Shown: one piece after another, positions 42,339 to 51,067 of the stretch
Position numbering within the stretch: position 1 is the first letter of the stretch
Layout: the number at the start of each line of letters is the position of its first letter
Assembly: GCF_009914755.1 (NCBI RefSeq)
Contig: NC_060925.1
Direction: 5' to 3' (one strand)
DNA from: the human T2T-CHM13v2.0 reference genome, Homo sapiens
Length of the DNA stretch: 64,000 bases
The notes under the pieces: model-generated
Seen by the model: only the letters and a program-made list of their open reading frames with translations
What the model was told of the DNA's origin: nothing
Databases searched by the model: none
Translations under genes and position numbers: made by a program

Positions 42339-42741
42339 TGTTAAAATAAAATCCTTAGGCAAATTAAATTTAACAGAGTTTAATTCAGCAAAGAACGATT
42401 TGTGAATCGGGCAGCCTCCCAAGCCAGAGTAGGCTCCGAGACTCCAGCACTGACATGTGATGGAAGATTTATAGACAGAAAAAGGAAAGTGCTCTATAAA
42501 AAACTGAAGTGAGGGACAAAACAGCCAGATGGGTTACAGCTCAGTGTTCGCCTTATTTGAACACGGTTGGAACTGTTGGCCACCTTTGACTGGCTAAAAC
42601 TTGGTGATTGGCACAAGAGTAAGCTACAGTCTGTTTACAAGTCCATTTAGGTTATAGTTCATGATATATAGAGAAACCTTTAGGTCGAACTTAAGATATT
42701 TATATGTAAGGAGGCAGCTTTAGGCTAAACTCATTTTAACT
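42339..42741 (-). mobile_element. MER57-type ERV1 solo LTR
   Basis: Minus strand gtttagcctaaagctgcctccttacat..., TATAAAT (42473-42467), ATTAAA (42384-42379); flanks ctac/ctat. Confidence 0.85.
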
Positions 42742-48407: not shown

Positions 48408-49412
48408 TTAAGTGGGGGTAATCTATCTAAAGCGCCTGACACTTAGTTGGAACTCAATAAGGAGACACTAATAGTGTTTGTTACTTAGCAGTGCTGATGT
48501 ATAGTGATGCTCAGGACAAGTTTAAGCAAGCGAATGAATGAATAGGATGTGTAGAATCACACAGATTTTACCAAACTGAAGAAAACTAACACTTTCGAGC
48601 TTTTTTAGTGTTGAATCACTTCAGGGCAAAGTGATCAGCCAGTGTGCGGTAAGCCCTCTAAACTTCTGTTAGCCTTCTTGATTCCTTAACTGAACCGGTG
48701 AGAATGCTGAGGTCAGAGGAAAAAAGTGATGTGCCCCAGGCTTCAGAGCTGTTTAGGGGATCGGGATGAGACCCAAGGTCTCCTGAGGCCTAGCACAAAG
48801 CTTAACCCATAGGGACCTGCCTGGCTGGGCTGGGAGTTGAGGGGTTAACAGACTGATCCTAGAAAACAAATAGGCTTTTGGCTTGGTTTACCTGTGCTTG
48901 CTAGGCATATTGTTACCCAGCAGTGACCCCGTCTGAGTGTGGAAAGAGCTGAACCACAAGAGCATCCCAGCTTGCCCCAGGGCAGCCACCCAGGGTTGAC
49001 CTCTAATCTGAAGACATCTTTGGGGAGAGCTCTCACACACTTCCCCAAATATACTTCTATGTGCTTCTGTGTGTGTCACAAGAGGCCTTGGGTCACCTCC
49101 TTCCTTTGCGCAATGAGATCAAAAGAGCAGTTTCTGCTTCTGCTGTTGCTTCTTTCCTGTTACCACTTTCTTGGACTTTTCGGGGACTGTTGAATTCTTA
49201 GGACACAGCCCTGCTCTGGCCCTGGTGGGCTTCCTCTATTAGAAGGCTCCCCAGGGCTTCCTGACTGGAGCAGATGGCCCTCCCTTTCCCGGGTGAAACA
49301 GGCTGACCTGGGCAGGCCGGCCCCTCTGCCTTTGATCTGCAGGTGGGAGGCAATAAAAGGCACTTTCCACGTGCCTGCTATAACCATATTTTCCAAATTC
49401 AAAAGCAGGACT

Positions 49413-49478
49413 CAGGAGTCTCTCTGAGCCTACTCTGGTTTGAGAGGCTGCCTGTAAAAATAAATAAATTAAATAACT
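49413..49478 (+). mobile_element. Tiny retrocopy: 42-nt ERV1-LTR R-region fragment plus A-rich tail
   Basis: TSD aaaagcaggact (49401-49412) and aagagcaggact (49479-49490). Body is homologous to the minus strand of 42408-42447. Confidence 0.8.
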
Positions 49479-49625
49479 AAGAGCAGGACTTTACCCACCC
49501 CATACATATGTCCTTCTAAGGACTTTGAGACAAAAGATGGGAAATTGGACCATGCCAGGAAACCCAGGATGGCTGGCTGCCATACACAGGCCTCATGGAA
49601 AATTCTCTCCTCTGGGGGATGTCTG

Positions 49626-49792
49626 CCGGAAGTGCCATCTGCTTTTGCCACAGATTCATGGCTGTGAGTGTGGCTCAGGCAATAACCACAGTAGACCCTT
49701 GGTTAACTCCTGCTGTGGTTCCGCCAGGAAGCCTGGCATGAACAGTTGTGTCCAGGAAATCTTTTCCCTGATTTCACTAGCTTGTTTTATCT
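49626..49792. promoter_or_regulatory. Candidate haematopoietic enhancer core
   Basis: ETS CCGGAAGTG, E-box CATCTG, RUNX AACCACA and TGTGGTT, MYB CAGTTG, two more GGAA cores, GATA TTATCT. Confidence 0.5.
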
Positions 49793-51067
49793 GCCTGACA
49801 ACCTTACTCCCAGGAAGGCTTTGCAAGGCACTTTCACCTTCAGCTCTTGGAATGAATAAATACAGCTATGATTTTTTAAAAAATATCAGTCCAACAATTT
49901 CGGTATGTCCAATAAATATCATAATGACCTGTTTCACGTATCAGGAACTGTGCTGTGCACTGTCAGAGATAAAATGGTGAAAAATGCCATTCTCTTTAAT
50001 CCTTTTGAGGCCCTGCTGGCATGAAATCGTGTTAGTGCTCAAGGGAAGGTACAATGGCTGAACACATAGTTTCCACCTTTTCACACTCAACTACAGTACA
50101 GATTAATCACGGTGTCATAGGAGGGAGCCAGACTTGGCATCAGATCCTGGATTCAAATCTTGCCACCTTCACTTGATGACTGTCTGGTACTGAACAAGGT
50201 ACTCTTTCAACCTCTTACTCCTCATCTACCAAGAAGGAGGTCATAATTCCTCCTGGCAGTGAGGTTGGGTGAGGAATAAATGCTGGCACATTGTTTATGA
50301 GCCTAAGGCATAATAGATGCTGAGAAAAGGTTTATTTCCTTCTTTCCTTAAGGAGCTTAGAGGCTAATAGATAACAACTGGTCCTGCTGTAACTAACACA
50401 CACTGCTGACTGTCATACAATCTCAACTAGGGGTGTGAAAGCATGCCGAGGTGGCCTTTTGAGGTTTGTTGCATATGCTTGGGGAAAAACGCTCAGATTA
50501 GCATTGCCGGGGGCCGTTTCCTGGGCTCCTTCCTGCAGGGCCTGTTTCGGGGCCCTCCACCCAAATCCACTCCGGGAGGAGTAAGTTTCGGGGCCTTTAT
50601 TACCCACTTGTGATTAGGGATCAGAAGTGGCCAGTCGGGGTGGGTTGGCAGTGACTTGCACCCAAGGGAAGGATGGGAGCCCACAAGAGTGGCAGGGCTC
50701 TGGGGAGAGAGGCAGGCTAACCAGTAGAAGTGAATAGGATGTGCTAAAGTATTCCCTTGAGAGTGGAAATACCATACAGAAGACTTGGATATGTGGTTTT
50801 CACCCTAAACCAAGCTGAGGAACCAGCACCAAATGCTTAACAAACACACAAACAAAAACAAAAACCCCCCTCTGGGTGGCCCAATGCTGTAGCACTTCAC
50901 TTTTCATGGGACCTTGCAGCTTACATGCAGCATTCAAAGACATGAGTTTATTTGGGCCTTCCAATATCCGAGCTTGGTAGGTAGGCTAATTTCATCACTT
51001 CATTGTACAGAGGAAAAATCTGAGATTCAGAGAAGTTACACAACTTGCCAAGATCACATCTAAGTAG

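What the first reader, a model, noticed from the sequence alone, without database searches (positions are those of the whole stretch)
49401..49490. Retrocopy of a 42-nt TAR-like hairpin RNA from an ERV1 LTR transcription start
Seen: CAGGAGTCTCTCTGAGCCTACTCTGGTTTGAGAGGCTGCCTG (49413-49454) plus an A-rich tail lies between 12-bp direct repeats (11/12 identical) at a ttc|aaaa site. Established knowledge: these are hallmarks of L1 target-primed reverse transcription. Seen: the whole body folds as one hairpin. CAGG pairs with CCTG (G bulge), AGUCUCUC with GAGAGGCU (8 bp), then a 5'-side U bulge, GAGCC with GGUUU (5 bp) and a 6-nt loop UACUCU. Seen: the MER57-type LTR in this window carries the homologue (minus 42447-42408, CTGGAGTCTCGGAGCCTACTCTGGCTTGGGAGGCTGCCCG). 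There it starts ~26-30 nt after the first T of TATAAAT and ends ~23 nt before the ATTAAA signal. The copied RNA therefore spans roughly the predicted TSS to +42 and is not a normal cleaved and polyadenylated LTR 3' end. Inference: a fossil of a short promoter-proximal (paused or attenuated) hairpin RNA, analogous to HIV TAR short transcripts. This would imply an elongation-control element or small-RNA class in MER57/MER4-group ERVs.
Basis: partly seen in the sequence, partly recalled or inferred. Interest (0 to 1): 0.85.

Follow-up and report, generated by a model that had tools for sequence, protein, structure and literature searches.

The report
Fossil copies of aborted retroviral transcripts
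The human genome holds at least 98 tiny pasted-in DNA copies of the first ~42 letters of an ancient retrovirus-like element, and they likely record a short capped hairpin RNA made when transcription stopped early, much as HIV makes its short TAR RNAs today.

Summary
Searches of the window's own genome gave 98 distinct short, A-tailed copies of the start of an ERV1 LTR R region (MER57/MER51-type, names recalled). 93 of 98 begin at one base, 31 nt behind the TATA box. 66 of those 93 carry a G at -1, where 0 of 37 LTR copies have one; this is the known sign of a reverse-transcribed cap. 76 of 98 end at +40 to +43, 2-5 nt past a hairpin (+1 to +38) and about 21 nt before the ATTAAA signal, often with an untemplated T before the tail. 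Only 3-4 start-anchored copies run on to the poly(A) site. Three LTR sequence types contributed, and two upper-stem pairs change compensatorily between them. Best reading: L1 retrocopies of a capped, likely prematurely terminated Pol II hairpin RNA, with the geometry of HIV short TAR RNA. Termination versus later trimming is not resolved, and no regulatory role is shown. Closest known: tarsier TINEs, which end at the poly(A) signal. Ten literature searches found no description; Dfam and Repbase could not be checked.

The parts
49401..49412 (+). 5' target-site duplication, starting at a TC|AAAA L1-type nick site
   Evidence: scored above all shuffled-flank pairings
49413..49414 (+). two junction bases beyond the TSD, not templated by the LTR; the family usually has a G at the second position
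49415..49454 (+). retrocopied body, +1 to +40 of the LTR R region; hairpin at 49415-49452 (10-pair lower stem with a G bulge, U bulge, 5-pair upper stem, 6-nt loop)
49455..49478 (+). untemplated T followed by a decayed A-rich tail
49479..49490 (+). 3' target-site duplication (11/12 identical)
42339..42741 (-). solo ERV1 LTR of the source family (MER57-type by recall); a relative of the source, not shown to be the parent of the insertion
42467..42473 (-). TATA box; first base at -28 in this copy, at -31 in 18 of the 27 LTR copies with a recognisable box
42410..42445 (-). inferred start site (42445) and hairpin homologue in the LTR (2 nt shorter 5' arm)
42379..42384 (-). ATTAAA poly(A) signal, +64 in 17 of 21 LTR copies with a recognisable signal; absent from the short copies

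Best explanation
This is one of at least 98 short, A-tailed copies of the first ~42 nt of an ERV1 LTR R region, inserted with the hallmarks of L1, and they likely record a capped hairpin RNA released by premature RNA polymerase II termination just past the hairpin. Steps: (1) Pol II starts at a G 31 nt behind the TATA box (position shown by the copies; capping inferred from the extra G). (2) The first 38 nt fold into a hairpin (predicted; the upper stem is backed by covariation). (3) Polymerase pauses and is released at about +40 to +50, perhaps by Integrator, and the end may be trimmed back towards the stem base (inferred). (4) The hairpin protects the RNA, which gains one or two U and then an A tail from non-canonical tailing enzymes (untemplated T shown; enzymes inferred). 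(5) L1 ORF2p copies it by target-primed reverse transcription, including the cap (hallmarks shown). The copies carry no promoter and are likely inert.
For: 5' ends: first templated base at +1 in 76, by +4 in 90 and by +8 in all 98. None of the 73 tail-bearing hits among the 100 listed rows of the 3'-anchored search has U3 upstream. Base at -1 is G in 66 of 93 (57 of 83 after dropping ten copies found with a G-anchored pattern) against 17% G in flanks and 0 of 37 LTR copies. It lies beyond the TSD in 25 and is shared with the target in 12 of 37 testable copies. It is seen in all three sequence types (51/76, 8/8, 7/9). PMC2912911 (passage) reads such a G as a reverse-transcribed cap and gives 12.4% extra bases for full-length Alu. 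3' ends: 76 of 98 at +40 to +43. Of all 27 G(-1) hits of a search blind to the 3' end, 24 are short copies. At +44, T:C is 16:7 in short copies against 5:22 in LTRs, p 4.5e-4. The ATTAAA works, since 3-4 start-anchored copies end 12-13 nt past it, but these are far fewer. HIV short TAR RNA has the same geometry: hairpin +1 to +57, pause at +62, ends at +61 (PMC4872094, passages). Uridylated Pol II start-site RNAs peak at about +50 (PMC5069555, passages), and such products can be A-tailed and exported (PMC11609308, passages).
Against: No RNA data were available, so the RNA itself was not observed. A hairpin ending at +38 cannot be fully outside a polymerase paused at +42 (general knowledge), so trimming after release probably contributes and pure pausing cannot be told from processing. 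Only two pairs covary, perhaps two or three events in all. The lower stem shows no compensatory change, its conservation is partly imposed by my search patterns, and RNAalifold preferred a different local pairing for +1 to +11. Only 54 of 98 copies have a TSD above the 95th percentile of the null, and 27 of those 54 show a YY|A[AG] nick. Three LTR-like loci with G at -1 exist (L138, L146, L150). The short versus R-length counts come from different patterns with unequal sensitivity, and only 16 of 83 poly(A)-site hits were fetched. In PMC11609308 short substrates are mostly U-tailed and A-tailed ones tend to be longer.
Confidence: 0.62

Rival explanations
1. The short RNA was real but made after transcription: R-length or longer capped LTR RNA was cut or degraded from the 3' end until the nuclease stopped at the 5' hairpin, then tailed and retroposed. 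No promoter-proximal termination is involved.
For: Ends cluster 2-5 nt past the predicted stem base with a thin spread out to +50 (10 of 98 reach +44 or more). R-length polyadenylated RNA existed. Untemplated U fits decay of structured RNA (PMC5069555, passages).
Against: Polyadenylated R-length RNA is the better L1 substrate, yet it left 3-4 start-anchored copies against 82 short ones in comparable tail-anchored searches. Type-3 copies, with a weaker hairpin (median -15.8 vs -19.9 kcal/mol), end at the same place.
Confidence: 0.2
2. No short RNA existed. L1 reverse transcriptase started on a poly(A) tail (its own or the LTR RNA's) and jumped onto a longer capped LTR RNA at the linker behind the hairpin, as in 3'-truncated U5/L1 chimeras and tailless retropseudogenes.
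For: Internal template switching and truncation hot spots in single-stranded regions are described (PMC4476161, PMC5322556, passages). This route would also give the cap G and an A tail. One locus joins LTR +40 directly to L1 coding sequence (L064).
Against: None of the 24 short G(-1) copies found blind to the 3' end is an L1 chimera. PMC4476161 uses the same lack of chimeras to argue for prior polyadenylation of U1. Tailless copies lack tails, whereas 89 of 98 here have at least 60% A at +44 to +58. L064 carries U3 and may be an LTR cut by an L1 insertion.
Confidence: 0.12
3. A single master locus became a small SINE-like gene, transcribed by Pol III from the TATA box, and seeded the family.
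For: A G start about 31 nt behind a TATA box and U-rich 3' ends resemble U6-type genes (recalled).
Against: Copies come in three sequence types plus a 2-nt-shorter variant, each also found in LTRs. The two CpG sites decayed independently (Fisher p 0.35). The template has only two T at the end point, and the extra 5' G points to a cap.
Confidence: 0.04
4. The copies are eroded LTR remnants, or 5'-truncated copies of long transcripts polyadenylated at +42 from the TATA box acting as an upstream poly(A) signal, as in HML4 or HTLV-1.
For: A stem-loop can bring a distant signal close to the cleavage site (PMC2664473, passage).
Against: 0 of 73 tail-bearing hits carry U3. The 5' ends are sharp and have an extra G. 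Host-repeat paralogues are continuous across two insertion sites.
Confidence: 0.02

Closest known systems
Tarsier TINE1/2/3 (PMC5059674, PMC5322556; passages and the legend of Supplementary Fig. 3)
   Same: Short L1-mobilised, A-tailed copies of RNA started at the TATA promoter of an ERV LTR. The TINE3 source is given as MER83B in the main text (MER82B in the supplement legend); PMC4724089 places MER83 with MER57 in the MER50-like supergroup.
   Different: TINEs end by CPSF cleavage at the LTR poly(A) signal, number about 30,000 and are tarsier-specific. These copies stop about 21 nt before the signal, number in the low hundreds at most and are in the human lineage. The 3-4 R-length copies found here are the real TINE equivalents.
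HIV-1 short TAR RNA (PMC4872094, passages)
   Same: Capped RNA from the LTR start site, folded as one hairpin from +1, ending 4-5 nt past the stem and before the poly(A) signal.
   Different: 38-nt rather than 57-nt hairpin. Single-U bulge and a loop that varies between types, not the 3-nt bulge and CUGGGA loop. No transactivator known or tested. Known here only from DNA copies.
Gammaretroviral R-region stem-loop of MLV and gamma-like HERV LTRs (PMC2664473, passages)
   Same: A stem-loop just behind the start site is described as a conserved LTR feature, so the hairpin itself is expected.
   Different: The passages read describe it as an element of the long RNA, not as a free short RNA or a retroposed family.
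TSS-associated short RNAs, uridylated 5' mRNA fragments, capped pre-miR-320/484 (PMC5069555, PMC11609308, passages)
   Same: Promoter-proximal Pol II products of about 50 nt, structured, U- or A-tailed, reaching the cytoplasm.
   Different: Described from host promoters in living cells; my searches found no retrocopy family of them. The 15-pair stem is short for Dicer (inference).
Poly(A)-extended snRNA pseudogenes and tailless retropseudogenes (PMC4476161, PMC5322556, passages)
   Same: L1 copies of small RNAs that lack a canonical poly(A) signal, with TSDs.
   Different: The source is a retroviral promoter product, not a housekeeping RNA, and the copies have tails.

Membership tests
L1-mobilised retrocopy | Target-site duplication of about 7-20 bp | tested here: met
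   12 bp in the window; 54 of 98 above the 95th percentile of shuffled flanks; lengths 6-22 in the first 44
L1-mobilised retrocopy | Untemplated A-rich 3' tail | tested here: met
   89 of 98 with at least 60% A at +44 to +58; LTR median 27%. Most copies were found with tail-anchored patterns, but 24 of 27 hits of a tail-blind search are also short copies
L1-mobilised retrocopy | Nick at an L1 endonuclease site (TT|AAAA-like) | tested here: inconclusive
   TC|AAAA in the window; YY|A[AG] in 27 of 54, TT|A in 11 of 54 by a rough automatic edge call
L1-mobilised retrocopy | Empty site before insertion | tested here: met
   Paralogous host repeats are continuous across L007 and L072; not testable for the window copy
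TINE (tarsier LTR-derived retropseudogenes) | Starts at the LTR's TATA-directed start site | tested here: met
   93 of 98 anchored at +1; TATA at -31 in 18 of 27
TINE (tarsier LTR-derived retropseudogenes) | 3' end made by CPSF behind the LTR poly(A) signal | tested here: not met
   Short copies end at +40 to +50, the signal is at +64
HIV-type TAR element | Hairpin from +1 with short RNA ending a few nt past it | tested here: met
   Hairpin +1 to +38, ends +40 to +43 in 76 of 98; shown in DNA copies only
HIV-type TAR element | 3-nt bulge and CUGGGA loop that bind Tat and cyclin T1 | tested here: not met
   Single-U bulge; loop differs between the three types. No Rfam family reached its gathering score in 49000-49900
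HIV-type TAR element | Release of pausing by a viral transactivator | not testable with these tools
   No RNA or functional data
Gammaretroviral R-region stem-loop | Conserved hairpin at the start of R | tested here: met
   Median z -2.65 to -2.96 for +1 to +42 in 37 LTR copies against +0.24 and +0.46 for the neighbouring windows; pairs 14:25 and 15:24 change on both sides
Tailless retropseudogene | 3'-truncated copy without an A tail | tested here: not met
   Tails present; L143 has only a 2-nt tail
Capped pre-miRNA (miR-320 type) | Dicer cleavage and Argonaute loading of the 3' arm | not testable with these tools
   No small-RNA data; no Rfam miRNA match
MER57 / MER51 LTR families | Match to the Dfam or Repbase model | not testable with these tools

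The most novel reading that the evidence does not exclude
These ERV1 groups used a TAR-like switch tens of millions of years before lentiviruses reached humans: a selected 5' hairpin at which Pol II was released by default, giving an abundant stable capped 42-nt RNA in the germline, with read-through allowed by a viral or host factor. The retrocopies would be the first genomic fossil record of promoter-proximal termination at nucleotide resolution, including cap and U tail, and the same search could map attenuation sites for other extinct promoters.
Probability: 0.22. Interest if true: 0.88.

Novelty: new variant of a known kind. Interest (0 to 1): 0.7.

Why it matters
The copies fix the start site, the cap and the 3' end of an RNA from retroviral promoters that were active in an ancestral primate germline. 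They suggest that short, poly(A)-signal-independent hairpin RNAs from LTRs are not special to HIV, and that L1 can copy capped Pol II products as short as 40 nt. They give a direct test of whether gamma-like LTR hairpins are termination sites, and a general method: search for TSD-flanked, G-capped, A-tailed copies of the first 40-60 nt of any old promoter. They also warn that some 45-bp 'LTR fragments' in repeat annotations are probably independent insertions, usable as presence/absence markers.

Tried and rejected
Rfam scan of 49000-49900: three chance-level matches, none near its gathering score. The first automatic TSD caller was too permissive and was replaced by a log-odds version with a shuffled-flank null. 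A divergence comparison of short copies with LTRs (15.6% vs 7.9% pairwise) is not usable, because the LTR set was selected for fewer mismatches. The second hairpin (+39 to +52) pairs in 75% of cells, but its two-sided changes sit mostly at CpG sites, and RNAalifold did not predict it, so I do not count it as support. L028 was dropped from the 99 candidates because it has a T-run, not an A tail, behind the body; four gapped or truncated LTR copies and L064 were left out of the 32-row alignment. An empty-site search for the window copy found no paralogue of its flanks. In one search the spanning alignments for L070, L084, L103 and L115 were not inspected and are not counted. Drosha cleavage was rejected by reasoning: the hairpin has no 5' basal segment and the ends lie beyond the stem. 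Ten literature searches found no description of this family; (MER57 + target site duplication + retrotransposed) returned 0 papers. The library lacks most subscription papers, Repbase Reports and Dfam notes; bioRxiv supplements are closed, and the TINE sequence figure was not readable, so TINE2 could not be compared by sequence.

Full report
Observation. The insertion is as described: direct repeats at 49401-49412 and 49479-49490, a body to 49454, an A-rich tail and a TC|AAAA site. The 42-mer folds with z -4.44. Its homologue lies in a 403-bp solo LTR at 42741-42339, minus strand. Rfam has no matching family.

It is a family. A DNA search of the window's own genome gave 34 hits. Further pattern searches and region fetches gave 98 distinct short copies and 37 LTR copies after duplicates and one ambiguous locus (L028) were removed. 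In the 3'-anchored search, 73 of the 100 listed rows (103 in all) are short copies, 10 fetched rows are LTRs and 17 rows were judged LTR from the printed sequence only. Of 28 short copies with G or A at -1 in the independent 5'-anchored search, 17 were also. That gives roughly 120 copies of types 1 and 2, a lower bound because both searches favour little-diverged copies. In a search neutral to class, 9 of 53 perfect hits were short copies (read from the printed rows).

5' ends mark a capped start site. The first templated base is +1 in 76, by +4 in 90 and by +8 in all 98. The 3'-anchored pattern begins at +14, so shorter copies could not be seen, but none of its 73 hits starts later than +8 or carries U3. 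+1 lies 31 nt behind the first base of the TATA box in 18 of 27 LTR copies with a recognisable box, in two types whose sequence upstream of +1 differs. The base at -1 is G in 66 of 93 anchored copies, or 57 of 83 without the ten found by a G-anchored pattern, against 17% G in the flanks and 0 of 37 LTR copies. Three further LTR-like loci found by the G-anchored pattern do have G there. In 37 copies with a significant TSD the G is beyond the TSD in 25 and shared with the target in 12. PMC2912911 (passages) reads a leading G on SVA and L1 as a reverse-transcribed cap and reports extra bases in 12.4% of full-length Alu. The window copy has CA here, so its true body starts at 49415.

3' ends stop before the poly(A) signal. 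Ends fall at +40/41 in 15, +42 in 20, +43 in 12, +43 plus extra T in 16, T directly behind +40 in 13 (some of these could be one-base deletions), +44 or later in 10, and other in 12. The ATTAAA is at +64. To avoid circularity I inspected all 27 G(-1) hits of a search blind to the 3' end: 24 are short copies and 3 are LTR-like. The base at +44 is T in 16 and C in 7 short copies, against 5 and 22 in LTRs (p 4.5e-4); in those LTRs the T is followed by G, as expected from CpG decay. I read this as untemplated U before the A tail (inference). The signal itself was used: of 83 hits for an A-run behind it, 16 were fetched. L124, L127 and L128 (and perhaps L126) are start-anchored R-length copies; L121-L123 carry U3. 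Short copies thus outnumber start-anchored R-length ones by roughly twenty to one, with unequal search sensitivity.

L1 hallmarks. 89 of 98 have at least 60% A at +44 to +58. 54 of 98 have a TSD above the 95th percentile of a shuffled-flank null, and 27 of those have a YY|A[AG] edge. L007 sits in an L1-type repeat whose paralogues match both flanks with a 12-14 nt overlap and no insert. L072 sits in the middle linker of an Alu, and dozens of other Alus are continuous there. These are insertions, not eroded LTRs. The window copy's flanks have no paralogue.

Several sources. Copies fall into three types (81, 8 and 9) that match three LTR types, and a 2-nt-shorter 5' arm occurs in 32 short and 7 LTR copies. 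The two CpG sites decayed independently (p 0.35). Only 3 of 81 type-1 copies keep CG at +27/28, and they differ pairwise by 15.6% outside CpG. One copy lies inside an Alu and at least 4 have an Alu head behind the tail. At a recalled neutral rate near 2e-9 per site and year this suggests 30-50 million years (inference, not calibrated).

The hairpin. +1 to +42 folds with median z -2.65 to -2.96 in LTR copies of all types, and the windows on either side do not (+0.24, +0.46). On 32 LTR copies, pairs 14:25 (G-C/A-U) and 15:24 (C-G/U-A) change on both sides while the loop changes too; 0 of 500 shuffles reach the covariation score, and slid registers fall to 32-54% pairing against 87%. These shuffles ignore relatedness, and the changes may be only two or three events. 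RNAalifold recovers the upper stem but not the lower one. The lower stem forms in single-sequence folds, shows no compensatory change, and was partly fixed by my patterns.

Mechanism. Most likely Pol II started at +1, paused and was released at about +40 to +50; the hairpin protected the capped RNA; tailing enzymes added U and A; and L1 copied it. HIV short TAR RNA has the same layout (hairpin to +57, pause +62, ends +61; PMC4872094, passages). Uridylated start-site RNAs peak at +50 and reach the cytoplasm (PMC5069555, passages), and premature termination products can be A-tailed and exported (PMC11609308, passages). Integrator is a candidate for start-proximal termination (PMC7471841, passages). 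The rivals are trimming of longer RNA back to the hairpin (0.2), a template switch by L1 with no short RNA (0.12), and a master SINE gene (0.04). DNA alone cannot separate the first from the best reading.

Comparison and novelty. It works like short TAR RNA but fails TAR membership on bulge and loop. A hairpin at the start of R is a described LTR feature (PMC2664473, passages). Tarsier TINEs are the closest retroposed relatives but end by CPSF cleavage (PMC5059674, passages, supplement search and Supplementary Fig. 3 legend; PMC5322556, passages); their MER83-type source is grouped with MER57 in PMC4724089 (passages). PMC4476161 and 10.1101/2025.02.02.635956 (passages) treat small-RNA pseudogenes and L1 chimeras; the latter has no MER57, MER4 or ERV mention in its main text. 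Ten searches found no account of this family, but Dfam, Repbase and most subscription papers were out of reach. Verdict: a new variant of LTR-derived L1 retropseudogene, interest 0.7; a regulated TAR-like switch remains possible (0.22) but is not shown.

Noticed in passing
L124, L127, L128, L126 (whole loci, 271 bp): Start-anchored, R-length, A-tailed copies ending 12-13 nt past the ATTAAA, with plausible TSDs: human counterparts of tarsier TINEs.
   Followed up: partly
L121, L122, L123, L012: LTR copies with U3 that turn into an A-rich run about 12-15 nt past the poly(A) signal; likely 3' ends of L1-copied LTR-terminated transcripts, though an insertion into an LTR is not excluded.
   Followed up: partly
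L064 1488-1800: An LTR with U3 breaks off at exactly +40 and continues as L1 coding sequence; the rest of the LTR was not found downstream within the locus.
   Followed up: partly
L007 and L088 (G000:C6:34324118, G000:C1:28492753): Two short copies inserted at nearly the same A-rich position of homologous L1-type repeats.
   Followed up: no
LTR +39 to +52 (window 42409-42396, minus): A CpG-rich palindrome directly behind the main hairpin could form a second small hairpin; the short copies end in its 5' arm.
   Followed up: partly
all short copies: Short copies lie in more Alu-rich DNA than the LTRs (1.92 vs 0.77 Alu motifs per 3 kb; 38 and 13 loci), and T is enriched at -3 (40 of 93 against 28% in flanks).
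   Followed up: no
The share of short copies seems lower for type 3 (9 of 100 listed rows of a tail-favouring search) than for type 1 (73 of 100); type 3 has the weaker hairpin, but age and search bias differ too.
   Followed up: no
L029 and L136, just 3' of the LTR end: A TGG-starting primer-binding-site-like stretch follows the LTR; by recall it matches a leucine tRNA.
   Followed up: no
window 49073-49222: A RefSeq enhancer ends about 180 bp upstream of the insertion and does not include it.
   Followed up: no
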